DNA from: Thermoanaerobaculia bacterium
Lineage (GTDB): Bacteria > Acidobacteriota > Thermoanaerobaculia > Gp7-AA8
DNA: 64,000 nucleotides
Assembly (NCBI GenBank): GCA_035276475.1
Contig: DATELQ010000052.1
Location: forward strand, 67-64,066
Direction of reading: 5' to 3'
The notes under the pieces were generated by a model. That model ran no database searches and was not told the origin of the DNA. It saw only the letters and a list, made by a program, of their open reading frames with translations. Positions 29 through 5,193 of the stretch are shown here, one piece after another (position 1 is the first letter of the stretch; each line of letters opens with the position of its first letter). A program made the position numbers and the translations under genes.

Positions 29-616
29 TCAACCTCCGAAATCTTGGGCGTTCAGGCGCAGCTCCGCGACAGGCCGAAGAACCTGCGTCAGCGCCTCTTC
101 TCCGTTGATCGCGTCGCGATCGTTCCATACCGTTCGCATCAGCGCAACGTTGTCGCGTAACGGCCGCACAGGAAACAACAGATCGTCGTCGGCGCGGTGA
201 AGCCAGATCGCCAAGAGCGAGAGACTCGGCGCGCGCAGAAGACGAAGCTCGAACGGCGTATCGGCGACCTCAGGGAGCACCTCGGCGGCGGCAATCGTTT
301 CGGCGATTGCCGTCGCATACGAGCGGGGATGTAAGGTCGCGTACGAGAGATCTTCCTTCCCGTCGGCATCGCGAGCACAAATTTCGGCCATCGCCACAAC
401 CGATTCGCCGTCGACGATCAGAAACTCCCAGGCCGAGAGCAATGCAGCAGCGAGCGGACGGCCGTCGATGACATCGTTGAGCGCGAACGTGTACAACGGA
501 TACGGTTTGACGATCTCAAGATGCTTGTCGTTCCACTCCTCGCCGAGAAACATCGGCACGAACTCATTCACGAAGCCGAGCGCCTTGGGGGGCGCGTTAC
601 TCAAGGACAAAGTCAT
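29..616 (-). CDS. hypothetical protein (195 aa), last gene of the CHAT-protease operon
   Basis: Complete ORF that overlaps the upstream peptidase gene by 20 bp on the same strand, indicating translational coupling. I recognise no motif in it. It could continue an operon beyond the window start. Confidence 0.45.
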   Translation of the reverse strand: MTLSLSNAPPKALGFVNEFVPMFLGEEWNDKHLEIVKPYPLYTFALNDVIDGRPLAAALLSAWEFLIVDGESVVAMAEICARDADGKEDLSYATLHPRSYATAIAETIAAAEVLPEVADTPFELRLLRAPSLSLLAIWLHRADDDLLFPVRPLRDNVALMRTVWNDRDAINGEEALTQVLRPVAELRLNAQDFGG

Positions 617-1211
617 TGATCGCCTCCGGTGCTTCTTTGTCGACGCGGGTTCCTGTCGTCCGATAGCTCACGTGCCAGAAACCGTCCTGTAGGTAATTCG
701 TCGTGAATAGCGTGATCGGCCAATGTTTGCGATCTCCGGTCTCTGGATCGCAAACCCATAGAAAATCCCCTCGCGGAGATTCAAGATATCCGCTCACGAC
801 GACGAAGTGCCCCGAGCCCATATGGCGGCGGTGAATGCGTACGGCAACCGGGTGTCCATCATCGATCTGGGCCTTGATGAACGCGACCGTCCGATGCGTA
901 GGGTCGTCGATCGCCGGTGCGACGAAGTGCGGTTCCAGCGCGTCCAGCGCCGGGGGGAGCTCGTGAGGGTCGTTGCAGCCGACGCCGTAGGGGCAGCACG
1001 TCAACGGCGCAAGCACCCGGCCGGCAACATCGCATTGCTGCGGGTTTCCCGTCGTACCGTATGCCTGCGCAATACCTAGACCGACGGCCGCCCAACACCA
1101 GTTCGTGCGTTTCTGTTGGGCGACCTGCACACGCAAGACCGTCGGTACGCCGTCAGGCACTATGGGCGCCAACGGCGTCCCGCCGCTTTGACTAATTGAG
1201 GGAAGACTCAT
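597..1211 (-). CDS. papain-fold cysteine peptidase, C39-like (Cys-His-Asp)
   Basis: The ORF contains a 'QQKRTNWCWAAVGLGIAQAYG' nucleophile-Cys segment, a later 'MGSGHFVVVSGY' His and 'WVCDPETG' Asp. Order and spacing are typical of C39 / C39-like (BtrH_N-type) peptidases. The start is taken at the internal Met (MSLPSISQ...), whose ATG overlaps the stop of the upstream gene (ATGA overlap at 1208-1211). Confidence 0.5.
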   Translation of the reverse strand: MSLPSISQSGGTPLAPIVPDGVPTVLRVQVAQQKRTNWCWAAVGLGIAQAYGTTGNPQQCDVAGRVLAPLTCCPYGVGCNDPHELPPALDALEPHFVAPAIDDPTHRTVAFIKAQIDDGHPVAVRIHRRHMGSGHFVVVSGYLESPRGDFLWVCDPETGDRKHWPITLFTTNYLQDGFWHVSYRTTGTRVDKEAPEAINDFVLE

Positions 1212-2142: not shown

Positions 2143-5100
2143 CTAAAGAGTTCCGACGAGCGTGACGCTGCCCCACACGGCGGGGCTGCGGCTGCGTGTG
2201 TCGTTGCTGTGCAGCATCGCGCGCTGCGCGTCGCGCAGTGCTTCCGAGGGGCGCGCGCCGCGGCGCAAATTCCGGTGGAACGACTCAAACAACTGCCGCG
2301 AGGCATCGTCGTCGATGTCCCACAATGTCGCGGTGACGCCGCGCGCGCCCGCCTGCAGGAACGCCGAGGCGAGGCTGTCGATCCCTTCGGTGCGCCGCAG
2401 TTTTCCGCGCGCCGTGCTACATGCGGCGAGGACCACCAACGGATGCGCGATGAGCTTGCTGCCGCTGATCTCCCGCGCGGTAAGCCGCACCGCCGCTGGC
2501 GCGGACTCGAAGATCAAGCTCGACGTCGCCGGCTCGTCGAGCTCGGCCGTGGCATGGCCACCAAAGTGTACAACGCCCGCATGCGCGGCGGACGTCAGAA
2601 AATCGGCTGGTGTCACGTCGTCGCCCACGAGGAGCTGACCACGAGGGTACAGACCGCGTATCTCACGCACTTCGCTCTCGACGCTTGGCAGCGGGTCGAA
2701 CCCTGTCGGCGCTGGCTCGGCGACTGCGACAAGCGTGTCGGCATTACCGCCTGGGACGGAACGGAGAAACACCGAGGCACTCGGCGCCGAGGCGACGATG
2801 CAATGATCGATGAGATAGGCTCCGTCGGCCGTGACCAGCGTCGCGAACGGAAACGACTGCAGCACGCCGTCACCGACGATTACCAGGTCGCGGTTGTCTT
2901 TGACCGGACCGAGCAAAGGGGCGAGGATTCGTTCGTAGAGCCACCGCCCGCTCCGCTGCACGGCGGCCGTATCGCCGCCGGCGATCGCGGCGAGATGTTT
3001 GCGGACAACCGCCTCGATCTCGTCCGGTGACGCGCCGCCGCGCGCATGTACAATGCGGCCCTCCCGGACGAGCCAGAACTCGATATTTTTTTCGAGCAGC
3101 GCGATCTCGAAGATCGCCGTCTGCCCGCGGACGGACGCTGCGATCTCGGATCCAGCGAGCGGTGCTGCCGCGATCCCACCGCCGTCCGCGATGCGGTCGA
3201 GTAGCAGTCGGCCGCGTTTCCGCTCGAGCACCGTCAACGCGTCTGCCGCTCGCTCCTCCCTCAGTAGGAGCTCGATCAGCCTGTCGAACAGATCACCAGA
3301 ACGCTCGAAGAACGCAACCCGCTTGATCGGATCCTCGATCATCGCGCGCTGTGTTTCCATCTCCGCGATGCCGGCGCGAAAGTCCCGTTCCGCCGCGGCC
3401 GCGTTGCCGCGCTGCAGTTCCGCCTGGCCGCGAGCCAGAAAGACCGGCGGCAAGTGAGCGTGCCAGTCGTATTGCTGCAGAACAGCGACTGCGGACGAGA
3501 AGCGAAGGATGGCTCGATCGGGATGCCGCCTCGCTTCGATTCGCCCGTCCGTATAGTCGATGTTCGCGAGGGTGAAGTCGCGCAGCCCGGCGTCCTCGAT
3601 CCGCATTGCGTGCGCACGAGCCGCGGCGATGTGCAACGAGGCACGCTCGACGTCGCCGATCTCCAGTAGACCGAGAGCCCGCCAGGACTCGCTTTCGGCG
3701 AGATAGAGCGGTAGACCGGTTTCGCGGGCGATGGCAGTCAGCGCGTCAACGAGAGCTAGCGCGAGATGTGGCCTATCGGCACGCAACGCCACGTACGCCG
3801 TGTCGAGATAGGACCAATACATCCGATCGGAAGCGGCATGAATAGCGTCATTGAGCCGCAGCGATTCGAGACGCGCCTCTTCTGCTTCGGTTCGGTCGTC
3901 AATGCTCTCGAGCGTCCAGGCAATCATCGTGGTGATCGCGGCAACGGCTTCGATCTCTCCTCCGCGTTTCGCTTCGGCGAGCGCGGTGCGGTAGTTGTCG
4001 AGGCTCTCCTGCAGGTGACCAGTGCGGCCGGCAATCATCGCGCGCACCCACCTGCTCTCGGCCGCCAGTGTCGGATACCGATTCCCTCCGGCCGCCAACC
4101 GCTCGGCGACCGACGTCAACCGGGCGAACGCCGCGTCGTTGCGGCCCGAAGTGAATTCGCCCTGTGCCGCGTAGACCGCCGCGCCGATCGCCAGCGGCGA
4201 GCCGGCGCGCGTCAGCAATTCGGATGCACTTCCGAAGAGTTCGGCGGCACGGTTCCAATCGGCCTTCTCCTCATAGACGCGCGCGTTGCAGAACTCGCGC
4301 AAACCCGGCGCCACCGCGTCGCGGTTCGCGACCGTGTGCTCAACGATGTCAAAGAGATATGGATCGCCGAGGCGGGCACGCGCGTTGGCGATGCCGCGCA
4401 TCAGTGCGAGGTCACCCGGGTCGCCTTTTTCCACCCAGCGTGGCAAGACGTAGTTCTGTGCGAAGCCCCGTGACCGCTGCGGGAACTCGGCCACGACTTT
4501 CGCGAATGTCGCGGCGTTGGCGTCCGGCTGCAGCAAGCGCTTCTCCTCTTTGTAAGTCGGATGGGGAGCTCGCAGTATGGCGAGGTGATGGCGCGCCTCG
4601 TCAGCCCAAGTGTTCTCCTCGTCGAGCGAGAGAACACGCTCCCACGCCTGAATCGCCGCCGGACGGATGGAAAGCTTCTCGAGTGCGAGTGCCCAGTTGA
4701 ATGCCGCGACCTCGTTCCCGGGGTCGAGCCGCAGTGCGCGGCCGGCCGTCTCCGCCGCCTCTGCGATTTGTCCCGCGGCGATCTCCGCGGCCGCAAGGTC
4801 GCTGAGGATGCTCGCATTCGTTGGCTGGAGGTGACCCGCCTCGATGAGGAGATCCCGCGCCGCGCGGATCTTGCCGTTCGAAAGCTCAGCAAGGGCGAAA
4901 CGGCGAATGTTCTCCGGCGTCTGTGCCTCCTCGAAGCGCCGCTTCAGCGCATCGAGATACTCGTGCCGCGCCGTGGGTGAGCCCCGCCATGGAAAGTCGA
5001 ACGCGTTCACGCGCGCTTCGATGCGCTTCGCCGCAACGGCGGCGGGCAAGCCAGTATCGGGTCGCCAACTGGCGGCGGTGATAACGGCGGCAATGACCGC

Positions 5101-5193
5101 GATCGGCCAGAGCCAGGTTCGCACGCTGGATGAATCCACGTTTTCGGTTGAAACTGGCGTCAAGGATACCCTGCTGATTGCTGACGTGGCCAT
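2143..5193 (-). CDS. TPR-repeat / CHAT-domain (caspase-like) protease, N-terminally membrane anchored
   Basis: 1016-aa ORF. The N-terminal hydrophobic helix (WLWPIAVIAAVITAASW) is followed by a long helical TPR-like region. The C-terminus matches the CHAT domain, with the catalytic His in 'VVHFGGHATAE' and the catalytic Cys in 'LVVLAACSTARG', then 'GVTATLWDIDDDASRQLFESFH'. Confidence 0.75.
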   Translation of the reverse strand: MATSAISRVSLTPVSTENVDSSSVRTWLWPIAVIAAVITAASWRPDTGLPAAVAAKRIEARVNAFDFPWRGSPTARHEYLDALKRRFEEAQTPENIRRFALAELSNGKIRAARDLLIEAGHLQPTNASILSDLAAAEIAAGQIAEAAETAGRALRLDPGNEVAAFNWALALEKLSIRPAAIQAWERVLSLDEENTWADEARHHLAILRAPHPTYKEEKRLLQPDANAATFAKVVAEFPQRSRGFAQNYVLPRWVEKGDPGDLALMRGIANARARLGDPYLFDIVEHTVANRDAVAPGLREFCNARVYEEKADWNRAAELFGSASELLTRAGSPLAIGAAVYAAQGEFTSGRNDAAFARLTSVAERLAAGGNRYPTLAAESRWVRAMIAGRTGHLQESLDNYRTALAEAKRGGEIEAVAAITTMIAWTLESIDDRTEAEEARLESLRLNDAIHAASDRMYWSYLDTAYVALRADRPHLALALVDALTAIARETGLPLYLAESESWRALGLLEIGDVERASLHIAAARAHAMRIEDAGLRDFTLANIDYTDGRIEARRHPDRAILRFSSAVAVLQQYDWHAHLPPVFLARGQAELQRGNAAAAERDFRAGIAEMETQRAMIEDPIKRVAFFERSGDLFDRLIELLLREERAADALTVLERKRGRLLLDRIADGGGIAAAPLAGSEIAASVRGQTAIFEIALLEKNIEFWLVREGRIVHARGGASPDEIEAVVRKHLAAIAGGDTAAVQRSGRWLYERILAPLLGPVKDNRDLVIVGDGVLQSFPFATLVTADGAYLIDHCIVASAPSASVFLRSVPGGNADTLVAVAEPAPTGFDPLPSVESEVREIRGLYPRGQLLVGDDVTPADFLTSAAHAGVVHFGGHATAELDEPATSSLIFESAPAAVRLTAREISGSKLIAHPLVVLAACSTARGKLRRTEGIDSLASAFLQAGARGVTATLWDIDDDASRQLFESFHRNLRRGARPSEALRDAQRAMLHSNDTRSRSPAVWGSVTLVGTL

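What the first reader, a model, noticed from the sequence alone, without database searches (positions are those of the whole stretch)
29..5193. Tight operon encoding a membrane-anchored TPR-CHAT (caspase-like) protease, two unknown proteins and a C39-like papain-fold peptidase
Four co-directional genes have overlapping or near-overlapping boundaries (14-bp gap, ATGA overlap, 20-bp overlap), which implies co-translation and a shared function. The first product combines an N-terminal TM helix, a long TPR-like array and a C-terminal CHAT domain. That domain has an intact catalytic dyad context (HFGGHA ... LAACST). The third gene encodes a second, unrelated cysteine protease with a Cys ... His ... 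Asp order (NWCWAA ... GSGHFVVVSGY ... VCDPETG). The 306-aa and 195-aa partners match nothing I recognise. Two different thiol proteases plus unknown partners in one translationally coupled cassette suggests a proteolytic signalling or conflict (defence/abortive) module, not housekeeping. CHAT proteases are known from Craspase and other immunity systems. I do not recognise this gene combination. The operon may continue beyond position 1.
Basis: partly seen in the sequence, partly recalled or inferred. Interest (0 to 1): 0.7.

Follow-up and report, generated by a model that had tools for sequence, protein, structure and literature searches.

The report
Four-gene caspase-like protease cassette
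A rare, tightly packed four-gene cassette from soil Acidobacteriota pairs a membrane-anchored caspase-like (CHAT) protease with a protein of unrecognised fold that ends in an invariant Cys-Gly-Pro tail, a papain-like protease and that protease's probable inhibitor; it looks like a new protease-gated module, but its biological role has not been tested.

Summary
Four co-directional minus-strand genes (5193..29) sit at junctions of a 14-bp gap, an ATGA overlap and a 20-bp overlap.

- **g1** is a single-pass TPR-CHAT protease. Its His880/Cys925 dyad aligns with the dyad of DdvA, its closest solved relative.
- **g2** (306 aa) belongs to a very small family: 120 clusters among 1.84 billion representatives. 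It has no Pfam hit. Its confident model has no fold match in the PDB. A Cys-x-Pro motif lies 5-13 residues from the C-terminus.
- **g3** is a C39_2/C70-type papain-fold peptidase with Cys39/His135/Asp155.
- **g4** models as two cystatin/PepSY-like rolls.

The same gene order recurs in about 14 Acidobacteriota loci with unrelated flanks. Across the wider g2 family, TPR-CHAT and g2 stay linked, while the third gene is a protease of changing class (C39-like, C1, S8 or M64). The g3-g4 pair also occurs alone on Burkholderia and Azospirillum plasmids.

My best reading is a proteolysis-gated module: CHAT acts as the sensor protease, g3 is a second protease restrained by g4, and g2 is the shared client or effector. 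A defence role is plausible but has no direct support. The compartment in which the parts meet is unresolved.

The parts
2143..5193 (-). g1: membrane-anchored TPR-CHAT caspase-like protease, 1016 aa (alternative GTG start at 5124 gives 993 aa)
   Evidence: ORF. Pfam CHAT 3.1e-57 and TPR_2 4e-8. Profile of 14 homologues hits DdvA 8ROT at 1.4e-26.
5065..5118 (-). g1 N-terminal transmembrane/signal-anchor helix (about residues 26-43)
   Evidence: Every g1 homologue has one N-terminal hydrophobic helix. L014 (LLATGC) and L011 (FVSAC) read as lipoprotein signals. Coordinates.
2959..4956 (-). g1 helical TPR-like scaffold (about residues 80-745); the Pfam-recognised TPR is residues 128-160 (4714..4812)
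2152..2958 (-). g1 CHAT domain (residues 746-1014); catalytic His880 (2554..2556) and Cys925 (2419..2421)
   Evidence: Pfam match. Dyad invariant in 14 homologues and aligned with DdvA H862/C907. Coordinates.
1208..2128 (-). g2: 306-aa protein of a new CHAT-linked family. It is beta-rich and has no known fold. Near-universal residues are His50 (1979..1981) and His253 (1370..1372).
1982..2023 (-). g2 variable His-rich insert (HDHEHDHEHEAPEH, residues 36-49), immediately before conserved His50
   Evidence: Alignment A1 shows a hypervariable, His-rich insertion at this position. The model has low confidence there.
1211..1288 (-). g2 Gly-rich disordered C-terminal tail with the family signature Cys290-Gly291-Pro292 (1253..1261)
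   Evidence: C290, G291 and P292 are invariant in A1. C-x-P lies within the last 30 residues in 112 family members, with Cys 5-13 residues from the end in 103 of them. Tail pLDDT is below 50.
597..1211 (-). g3: 204-aa papain-fold cysteine peptidase (C39_2/C70 type). Residues: Cys39 (1095..1097), His135 (807..809), Asp155 (747..749). Four further conserved Cys: 60, 72, 73, 79.
   Evidence: Pfam C39_2 at 1e-4 (23.3 bits; GA 24) and C70 at 2e-3 for the window protein. 12/12 homologues match C39_2 (best 1.9e-8) and 8/12 match C70 (best 4.8e-11). Invariant residues.
29..616 (-). g4: 195-aa partner of g3, modelled as two tandem helix-on-sheet (cystatin/PepSY-like) rolls; probable inhibitor or chaperone of g3
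5194..5418 (-). 225-bp non-coding spacer upstream of g1, where a cassette promoter would have to lie (none identified)
   Evidence: Sequence. The consensus scan found no sigma-70-like site on the minus strand.

Best explanation
The cassette is a self-contained, proteolysis-gated module built from two separable parts.

**Part 1** is the conserved core: a DdvA-like, single-pass membrane-anchored TPR-CHAT protease (g1) plus a client protein of a new family (g2). The most conserved features of g2 are two histidines and a Cys-Gly-Pro motif on a flexible tail a few residues from the C-terminus.

**Part 2** is a second, latent protease. In this subfamily it is a bare papain-fold C39_2/C70-type catalytic domain (g3), held in check by a co-translated cystatin/PepSY-like partner (g4). 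In sister subfamilies the same slot holds C1, S8 or M64 proteases.

**Proposed working.** The TPR array senses a protein signal at the membrane and switches on the CHAT dyad. CHAT then releases the second protease from its restraint, directly or indirectly, as SAVED-CHAT does for PCaspase. One of the two proteases trims the C-terminal tail of g2 and so changes its state. The tail cysteine may act as a latch on a His/His site.

**Shown here:** gene identities, catalytic residues, conserved synteny, interchangeability of the third gene, autonomy of the g3-g4 pair, and the C-terminal signature.

**Inferred:** every cleavage event, the inhibitor role of g4, metal binding by g2, the order of the cascade and the biological output.
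For: - The same order and tight spacing occur in about 14 Acidobacteriota loci with unrelated flanks.
- Across the whole g2 family, TPR-CHAT sits next to g2 in all six distant-subfamily neighbourhoods that could be read (L021, L022/JGI, L023, L024, L025, L027). In the five of these with a readable downstream gene, the third gene is always a protease, but of changing class: C1-like papain, M64-like HExxH metalloprotease or S8 subtilisin.
- The third-gene class tracks the g2 subfamily and its tail. Tails of the subfamily with the double-glycine-type C39-like peptidase are the most Gly-rich: a mean of 4.1 Gly in the 8 residues before Cys, against 2.6 and 1.7 in the other two.
- The CHAT dyad is invariant and aligns with DdvA H862/C907.
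- g3 has an invariant Cys and His and a near-invariant Asp.
- The g4 fold hits are dominated by protease inhibitors and propeptides.
- g4 occurs only with the C39-like g3.
- g3-g4 recur as a stand-alone pair in Burkholderia and Azospirillum: hhalign 99.6% for the Burkholderia g3-like protein, 95.5% and 98.75% for the two g4-like proteins.
- There is precedent for a CHAT-to-second-protease cascade (bioRxiv 10.1101/2023.06.23.546230) and for effectors licensed by removal of a C-terminal tail (PMC12642450).
Against: - No cleavage has been shown.
- Localisation is inconsistent. The TPR-CHAT body is probably periplasmic: it has a DdvA-like layout, the charge bias is N-in in 8 of 12 homologues, and two homologues have lipoboxes. 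The third-gene proteases of the other subfamilies carry signal peptides. Yet g2, g3 and g4 here, and g2 in the C1 and S8 subfamilies, have no signal peptide.
- Two loci in one MAG carry g2-g3-g4 with no adjacent CHAT gene yet keep the tail motif.
- g4 is not homologous to the stretch between the signal peptide and the catalytic Cys (putative pro-region) of the C1-like proteases.
- The metal-site and cysteine-latch idea for g2 rests on conservation only. The model leaves the tail undocked.
Confidence: 0.42

Rival explanations
1. Anti-phage or abortive-infection system. The TPR-CHAT senses a phage protein, the proteases fire, and g2 is a death effector unleashed by cleavage.
For: - Protease-plus-effector pairs are a common defence logic (PMC12642450).
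- DdvA, the closest solved relative of g1, controls a defence island (PMC11506125).
- The cassette sits in unrelated genomic contexts, as mobile defence genes do.
- Some neighbours are conflict-type: HipA_2/DUF3037 here, a SNIPE/T5orf172 nuclease in L004, contractile-injection genes in L005/L006, and a ResIII-restriction endonuclease plus Peptidase_C14 near P0146.
Against: - The only PADLOC hit is a marginal BovA hit: E 0.02, 11.5 bits.
- g2 matches none of the known protease-linked effector families by sequence or fold.
- Most flanking genes are metabolic or transport genes.
- Part of the system is probably extracytoplasmic, which is unusual for abortive effectors.
- No toxicity or phage data exist, and the hosts are uncultured.
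Confidence: 0.25
2. Extracytoplasmic maturation pathway, with no role in conflict. g2 is an envelope or secreted metal-binding protein. Its C-terminal Cys-Gly-Pro tag is recognised and trimmed, or transferred, by the membrane-anchored caspase-fold enzyme, in the way other clan-CD enzymes process C-terminal signals. The second protease helps with maturation or turnover.
For: - The g1 layout is DdvA-like, and two homologues carry lipoprotein-type signals.
- Distant g2 relatives and all non-C39 third-gene proteases carry Sec or lipoprotein signals.
- The signature sits at a near-fixed distance from the C-terminus: mode 7-8 residues; in 84% an Asp or Asn follows the motif.
- A His-rich insert lies next to conserved His50.
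- From memory, not tested here: GPI transamidase, PorU and legumain-type ligases are clan-CD enzymes that act on C-terminal signals.
Against: - g2, g3 and g4 of this subfamily have no signal peptide.
- The family is too rare and patchy for a housekeeping role: 120 clusters among 1.84e9 representatives, and all 10 genome-collection loci are in Acidobacteriota.
- No acceptor molecule or export route is evident.
- The Asx after the motif is not universal: 94 of 112.
Confidence: 0.2
3. g3-g4 is a toxin-immunity pair (a papain-like toxin with its cognate immunity protein) used in interbacterial competition. CHAT and g2 are merely linked or serve in delivery.
For: - g3-g4 occurs alone next to a T6SS-type polymorphic-toxin locus (DUF2169, polymorphic toxin type 15, GAD-like) and an integrase in Burkholderia contaminans, and beside an IS66 transposase in Azospirillum.
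- The g3 profile weakly hits CdiA-CT and DUF4150-linked papain-like toxin domains in the PDB.
- g4 diverges faster than g3.
- One locus abuts contractile-injection genes.
Against: - g3 is not fused to any delivery domain, and no secretion system is conserved beside the Acidobacteriota cassette.
- In sister subfamilies the slot is filled by ordinary secreted pro-proteases with no immunity gene.
- The PDB hits have E-values of 0.02-0.2.
Confidence: 0.12
4. RiPP-like pathway. g2 is a giant precursor whose C-terminal peptide (SGGxCGPGSGNG) is released by the C39-like double-glycine peptidase.
For: - C39-type peptidases cut after Gly-Gly.
- The g2 tail of this subfamily is GGGGSGG-x-CGPGSGNG and is disordered.
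Against: - The 'core' is nearly invariant rather than variable.
- The 280-residue 'leader' is a conserved folded domain.
- No modifying enzyme or exporter is conserved nearby.
- Other subfamilies keep the Cys-x-Pro tail but use non-C39 proteases.
Confidence: 0.04

Closest known systems
[quoted passage not shown]
   Same: About 1000 residues, with one transmembrane helix followed by a linker, a TPR scaffold and a C-terminal CHAT domain. It is the best non-TPR solved relative of g1 (profile E 1.4e-26). The His-Cys dyads align exactly, with the same 45-residue spacing.
   Different: g1 has no cytoplasmic zinc-binding anti-sigma domain (at most about 45 residues precede the helix), and no ECF sigma gene lies next to it. 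It is linked instead to g2 and a second protease. Similarity outside the CHAT domain was not detected by sequence.
SAVED-CHAT / PCaspase cascade of Haliangium ochraceum (bioRxiv 10.1101/2023.06.23.546230)
   Same: A CHAT protease is encoded with a second protease and a protease inhibitor. [quoted passage not shown]
   Different: There the sensor is a cytoplasmic SAVED domain that binds cA3, the second protease is a caspase, and the context is CRISPR/CBASS. Here the sensor is a membrane-anchored TPR array, the second protease is papain-like (or C1, S8 or M64 in sister subfamilies), and there is no nucleotide-signalling gene.
Protease-gated defence effectors (bacterial gasdermin, Pepco/Trypco, EACC1, MBL-fold and alpha/beta hydrolase zymogens; PMC12642450, bioRxiv 10.1101/2021.06.07.447441)
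   Same: A non-protease protein is encoded directly beside a caspase-like protease. Pepco and bacterial gasdermins are licensed by removal of a short C-terminal tail.
   Different: g2 matches none of these families by HMM or by fold. It is about 300 residues, has a Cys-x-Pro signature, comes with two proteases, and some relatives are secreted.
Craspase (Cas7-11 with Csx29 TPR-CHAT)
   Same: TPR + CHAT architecture with a His-Cys dyad.
   Different: The Csx29 model scores 16.9 bits against a cut-off of 300. There is no Cas7-11, Csx30/31 or CRISPR array. g1 is membrane-anchored.
Cysteine protease plus co-transcribed inhibitor operons (staphopain-staphostatin, SpeB-Spi) and cystatin/PepSY inhibitors (recalled from memory)
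   Same: A papain-fold protease gene is followed immediately by a small non-enzymatic partner gene. The g4 model resembles cystatin, PepSY and propeptide folds, including the prostaphopain B chain.
   Different: There is no sequence relationship. Staphostatins are beta-barrels. g4 has two tandem rolls and lacks recognisable cystatin motifs. Inhibition has not been tested.
Peptidase C39 / C39_2 / C70 (bacteriocin double-glycine peptidases, AvrRpt2)
   Same: Papain fold with the order Gln...Cys...His...Asp. All 12 homologues hit C39_2 and 8 hit C70.
   Different: It is a free-standing 204-aa domain, not fused to an ABC exporter. It has four extra conserved cysteines. The window protein itself scores just below both gathering thresholds.

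Membership tests
CHAT domain (Pfam PF12770, clan CD caspase-like) | Domain HMM match above the gathering threshold | tested here: met
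   194.7 bits against 24; E 3.1e-57; residues 746-1014 cover the whole model.
CHAT domain (Pfam PF12770, clan CD caspase-like) | Catalytic His-Cys dyad present and aligned to a solved CHAT | tested here: met
   H880 and C925 are invariant in 14 homologues and align with DdvA H862/C907.
CHAT domain (Pfam PF12770, clan CD caspase-like) | Proteolytic activity | not testable with these tools
   Needs biochemistry.
DdvA-type TPR-CHAT anti-sigma factor | Single transmembrane helix followed by about 900 residues of TPR-CHAT | tested here: met
DdvA-type TPR-CHAT anti-sigma factor | N-terminal zinc-binding anti-sigma domain and an adjacent ECF sigma gene | tested here: not met
   Only about 25-45 residues precede the helix. 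No sigma factor gene appears in any locus.
Type III-E Craspase (Csx29) | Csx29 family model, and linkage to Cas7-11 and Csx30 | tested here: not met
   NF041237 scores 16.9 bits against a cut-off of 300. The neighbouring genes are not cas genes.
Borvo (BovA) single-gene CHAT defence system | PADLOC BovA model match | tested here: not met
   E 0.02, 11.5 bits, over 50 residues around the catalytic Cys only.
Peptidase C39_2 / C70 (papain-fold, clan CA) | HMM match | tested here: inconclusive
   The window protein scores 23.3 bits against GA 24 (C39_2) and 18.4 against 19 (C70). However, 12/12 homologues match C39_2 (best 1.9e-8) and 8/12 match C70 (best 4.8e-11).
Peptidase C39_2 / C70 (papain-fold, clan CA) | Cys...His...Asp/Asn catalytic order with an upstream Gln | tested here: met
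   C39 and H135 are invariant and D155 is at least 90% conserved. Gln lies 5-6 residues before the Cys in this protein.
Bacteriocin-processing C39 (PCAT type) | Fusion to or pairing with an ABC exporter and a substrate with an N-terminal double-glycine leader | tested here: not met
   No ABC exporter is conserved with the cassette. The Gly-rich element is at the C-terminus of g2.
Bacterial gasdermin | Gasdermin fold or HMM | tested here: not met
Known protease-linked effectors (Pepco/Trypco, EACC1, MBL, alpha/beta hydrolase, MPE) | Family HMM or fold | tested here: not met
   No Pfam hit for g2 or g4 at E up to 1. The g2 model has no PDB fold match.
Cystatin / PepSY-type protease inhibitors (for g4) | Helix-on-antiparallel-sheet roll | tested here: inconclusive
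Cystatin / PepSY-type protease inhibitors (for g4) | Binding and inhibition of the partner protease | not testable with these tools
   Complex prediction and assays were not available.
Toxin-immunity pair (for g3-g4) | The pair is inherited as an autonomous two-gene unit | tested here: met
   Burkholderia L029 and Azospirillum L031 have g3-like followed by g4-like, without CHAT or g2.
Toxin-immunity pair (for g3-g4) | Toxicity of g3 that is neutralised by g4 | not testable with these tools
   Needs expression experiments.

The most novel reading that the evidence does not exclude
The g2 family would be an unrecognised class of caspase-fold-protease client with a new fold. A C-terminal Cys-Gly-Pro tail would act as a proteolytic latch or a transfer tag. 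Together with a membrane-anchored TPR-CHAT sensor and an interchangeable latent second protease, it would form a new kind of envelope-spanning proteolytic cascade. This cascade would be a bacterial counterpart of initiator and executioner caspase logic that operates at or across the membrane rather than in the cytoplasm.
Probability: 0.3. Interest if true: 0.8.

Novelty: new variant of a known kind. Interest (0 to 1): 0.62.

Why it matters
- CHAT and caspase-like proteases are emerging as central switches of prokaryotic immunity and cell death, but only a few of their clients are known.
- This cassette offers a compact, conserved test case. It has a sensor protease, a second protease with a built-in restraint, and a client whose signature (an invariant Cys-x-Pro a few residues from the C-terminus, two conserved histidines, and a fold with no match in the PDB) predicts a specific cleavage or latch event that can be mapped.
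- The natural swapping of the second protease among four catalytic classes is an evolutionary experiment. It shows that what matters in that slot is 'a latent protease', not its chemistry.
- The free-living g3-g4 pair in culturable Burkholderia and Azospirillum gives an experimentally accessible entry point.

Tried and rejected
- **Known families.** PADLOC, NCBIfam and PHROGs scans of all four proteins gave nothing useful.
- **g2 and g4 against the PDB by sequence.** Profile searches gave no meaningful hit.
- **Gasdermin idea for g2.** Rejected on fold and HMM evidence.
- **g4 as a detached pro-region.** g4 is not homologous to the stretch between the signal peptide and the catalytic Cys (putative pro-region) of the C1-like third-gene proteases (hhalign probability 0.1%).
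- **Streptomyces clavuligerus neighbour.** The gene after the g3-like gene there is not g4-like.
- **Mobile elements.** g2 was not found in viral contigs or plasmids.
- **Metagenome scan with the distant g2 subfamily.** It returned only one further locus of the standard type.
- **Promoter and terminator scan.** It gave nothing above shuffles.
- **RNA genes.** There are no tRNA genes or Rfam families in the window.
- **g1 topology.** The charge-bias analysis was suggestive (N-in in 8 of 12) but not decisive.

Full report
**1. What is in the window.** Positions 29-5193 hold four ORFs on the minus strand:
- g1, 5193..2143, 1016 aa (a gene caller starts it at the GTG at 5124)
- g2, 2128..1208, 306 aa
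- g3, 1211..597, 204 aa
- g4, 616..29, 195 aa

A 14-bp gap with an AAAGGAGAGGG ribosome-binding site precedes g2. An ATGA stop/start overlap joins g2 and g3. A 20-bp overlap joins g3 and g4, with GGAGG 6 nt before the g4 ATG. A 225-bp spacer precedes g1. The window matches a 133-kb contig of a Thermoanaerobaculia (Acidobacteriota) metagenome-assembled genome. On that contig the gene string continues past window position 1 with an aldo-keto reductase (4-bp overlap with g4), a HipA_2 kinase and DUF3037.

**2. g1.** Pfam finds a complete CHAT domain (residues 746-1014, E 3e-57) and one clear TPR within a long helical region. All 12 homologues examined carry a single N-terminal hydrophobic helix followed by a conserved DPL...R..EAR..GF.YA segment. 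Two of them (L014 LLATGC, L011 FVSAC) read as lipoprotein signal peptides. Flanking charges favour an N-in/C-out orientation in 8 of 12.

A profile of 14 homologues finds the DdvA anti-sigma factor (8ROT/8RW5, E 1.4e-26) as the best non-TPR solved relative. The paper describing that structure shows that its TPR-CHAT is periplasmic (PMC11506125). In the pairwise alignment g1 His880 and Cys925 fall on DdvA His862 and Cys907. Both residues are invariant in 14 homologues.

g1 lacks DdvA's cytoplasmic zinc-binding anti-sigma domain, and no sigma gene is nearby. The Csx29 (Craspase) and BovA (Borvo) models are far below threshold.

**3. g3.** The window protein scores just under the gathering thresholds of Peptidase_C39_2 and Peptidase_C70. 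However, all 12 homologues hit C39_2 (best 1.9e-8) and 8 hit C70 (best 4.8e-11). Cys39 (NWCWAA) and His135 (GHFVV) are invariant, and Asp155-Pro156 is nearly so. Four more cysteines (60, 72, 73, 79) are conserved. It is a bare catalytic domain with no signal peptide and no pro-region.

**4. g4.** It has no family hit and few invariant residues. It diverges fast: only 3-6 relatives were recovered by word-seeded searches. An AlphaFold model (pLDDT 85.5, pTM 0.84) shows two tandem units, each a helix packed on an antiparallel sheet.

Independent support that g4 belongs to g3 comes from plasmids of cultured proteobacteria. In Burkholderia contaminans a g3 homologue (hhalign 99.6%, E 1.5e-24) is followed 10 bp later by a g4 homologue (95.5%, E 1.6e-8). 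In Azospirillum oryzae a g3-like ORF is followed by a g4 homologue (98.75%, E 1.4e-16). Neither has CHAT or g2 nearby. One sits beside a T6SS-type polymorphic-toxin locus and an integrase; the other sits beside an IS66 transposase. g3-g4 is therefore an autonomous two-gene module.

**5. g2.** It has no hit in Pfam, NCBIfam, PADLOC, PHROGs or PDB sequences. The family is tiny: 29 proteins in a 5.8-billion-protein collection, and 120 clusters at E up to 1e-3 among 1.84 billion representatives with a profile. All 10 hits in a species-representative genome collection are Acidobacteriota.

Conservation is concentrated in three places:
- An N-terminal strand, MxxEIVFTGLC.
- His50 (99%) and His253 (98%).
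- A C-terminal Cys-Gly-Pro (Cys 100%, Pro 99% of 107 full-length members).

The Cys lies 5-13 residues from the C-terminus in 103 of 112 proteins (mode 7-8). In 84% an Asp or Asn follows the motif. The tail is Gly-rich and disordered in the model. A variable His-rich insert precedes His50. This pattern suggests a metal-binding or latch function for the tail cysteine, but that is inference only.

**6. Conservation of the cassette.** The order g1-g2-g3-g4 with short spacers recurs in three metagenome places, in the genome loci long enough to show it and in L020. The flanking genes are unrelated from locus to locus.

Two loci from one MAG carry g2-g3-g4 without an adjacent CHAT gene. A GGDEF protein lies upstream in one and a divergent kinase-TPR in the other. 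Both keep the g2 tail motif.

**7. The wider pattern.** Distant g2 relatives fall into subfamilies with different tails, and the neighbourhoods that could be read are consistent.

| g2 tail | Loci | Upstream | Third gene |
|---|---|---|---|
| GYCGPDxxP | L021, L027 (also L019, downstream gene only) | about 1000-aa TPR-CHAT | C1-like papain lipoprotein |
| NCxPxxWP | L024, L022 and its JGI contig | CHAT | M64-like HExxH metalloprotease with a signal peptide |
| NCxPxxWP | L023 | CHAT | S8 subtilisin with a signal peptide |
| GYCGPESKP | L025 | CHAT, divergent orientation | not readable |

The constant core is therefore TPR-CHAT plus g2. The third slot is always a protease, but of four different catalytic classes, and it tracks the g2 subfamily. 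g4 appears only with the C39-like g3. g4 is not homologous to the stretch between the signal peptide and the catalytic Cys (putative pro-region) of the C1-like proteases.

**8. Most likely mechanism.** I read the cassette as a proteolysis-gated module. A TPR-CHAT sensor protease at the membrane comes first. A second, latent protease follows, restrained here by g4. g2 is the common client, and its flexible C-terminal tail is the probable site of action.

Two published precedents make this plausible. SAVED-CHAT cleaves and activates a second protease, which in turn cleaves an inhibitor and other targets (bioRxiv 10.1101/2023.06.23.546230). Several effectors encoded beside proteases are licensed by site-specific cleavage, and Pepco in particular by removal of a C-terminal tail (PMC12642450). 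g2 is none of the ten effector families listed there.

One small piece of co-variation fits tail processing by the third protease. The subfamily paired with the double-glycine-type peptidase has the most Gly-rich pre-Cys segment.

**9. What does not fit.** Localisation is the main problem.
- g1 looks extracytoplasmic, and the third-gene proteases of the other subfamilies are exported.
- Some g2 relatives have signal peptides.
- Yet g2, g3 and g4 here, and g2 in the C1 and S8 subfamilies, have none.
- The four extra cysteines of g3 could be disulfides or a metal site.

Three resolutions are possible: the CHAT domain faces the cytoplasm in this subfamily, the signal-less proteins cross the membrane by an unknown route, or the parts act in different compartments. 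I could not decide between these.

The defence reading also lacks direct support. No known defence model matches. Neighbours are mostly metabolic, with only occasional conflict-type genes. There are no phage or plasmid copies of g2.

**10. Verdict.**
The proteases are real and the cassette is conserved, but the conserved partnership is CHAT-g2. The papain-like protease with g4 is a swappable sub-module, and a defence role is one of several live possibilities.
- The system is a new variant of the known protease-plus-client kind, with a client family that appears to be new in both sequence and fold.

Noticed in passing
window 5419..6225 (-), and L001 10585..11388 (beyond window position 1): The cassette is bracketed by two same-strand paralogous aldo-keto reductase genes that share 60% identity. 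The upstream copy (244 aa) has two internal deletions relative to the downstream copy (267 aa). This suggests the cassette was inserted between, or alongside, a tandem duplication.
   Followed up: partly
L001 11396..12557 (just outside the window, downstream of g4): A HipA_2 kinase gene is followed by a DUF3037 gene (Pfam 4.6e-19 and 8.5e-43), on the same strand as the cassette. The pair is not conserved with the cassette in other loci.
   Followed up: partly
window 6964..9564 (+): An 866-aa ORF with an N-terminal hydrophobic segment and two CxxCH haem-binding motifs (CGFCH, CARCH) has no Pfam hit. It is followed by a GMC oxidoreductase gene (9576..11435), which may make a redox pair.
   Followed up: no
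L005 / L006 1..4640: In one soil metagenome lineage the cassette lies divergently next to contractile-injection-system genes: an AAA ATPase with WHD, Pvc16_N, and two unannotated genes. It could be a payload locus. This was seen in only one lineage.
   Followed up: no
L016 and L018 (MAG CP_BM_RX_49): One genome carries two g2-g3-g4 copies with no adjacent CHAT gene. One lies downstream of a Y_Y_Y-GGDEF protein. The other lies next to a divergent Ser/Thr kinase-TPR protein. Ser/Thr kinases also flank the cassette in L021 and near P0146.
   Followed up: partly
P0053 (589 aa): In this protein a fragment of the g1 TPR scaffold runs directly into a complete g2-like sequence. The CHAT domain appears to have been deleted, which makes this a likely decayed or fused variant.
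   Followed up: no
L029 (Burkholderia contaminans plasmid NZ_CP090643) 5112..6138; L031 (Azospirillum oryzae NZ_CP054621) 3980..5201: Stand-alone g3-like plus g4-like gene pairs occur in cultured proteobacteria. One lies beside DUF2169, polymorphic toxin type 15 and GAD-like genes and an integrase. The other lies beside an IS66 transposase. Both downstream proteins are unannotated or hypothetical.
   Followed up: yes
L028 (Nocardia sp. plasmid NZ_CP109569) 3930..6069: Here the g3-like papain domain forms the C-terminus of a 513-aa protein and is followed by a 121-aa hypothetical protein, on a plasmid that also carries a Pycsar effector gene. This is the layout expected of a polymorphic toxin with an immunity gene.
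   Followed up: no
L027 576..3874: A LodA-like (LodA_N/LodA_C) gene and a flavoprotein gene lie immediately upstream of the CHAT gene in one distant-subfamily locus.
   Followed up: no
window 60099..62444 (-) and 19978..22164 (+): Elsewhere the window encodes a GAF-MshEN-T2SSE secretion/pilus ATPase and an M13 metallopeptidase. No tRNA genes or Rfam RNA families were found in the whole 64 kb.
   Followed up: partly
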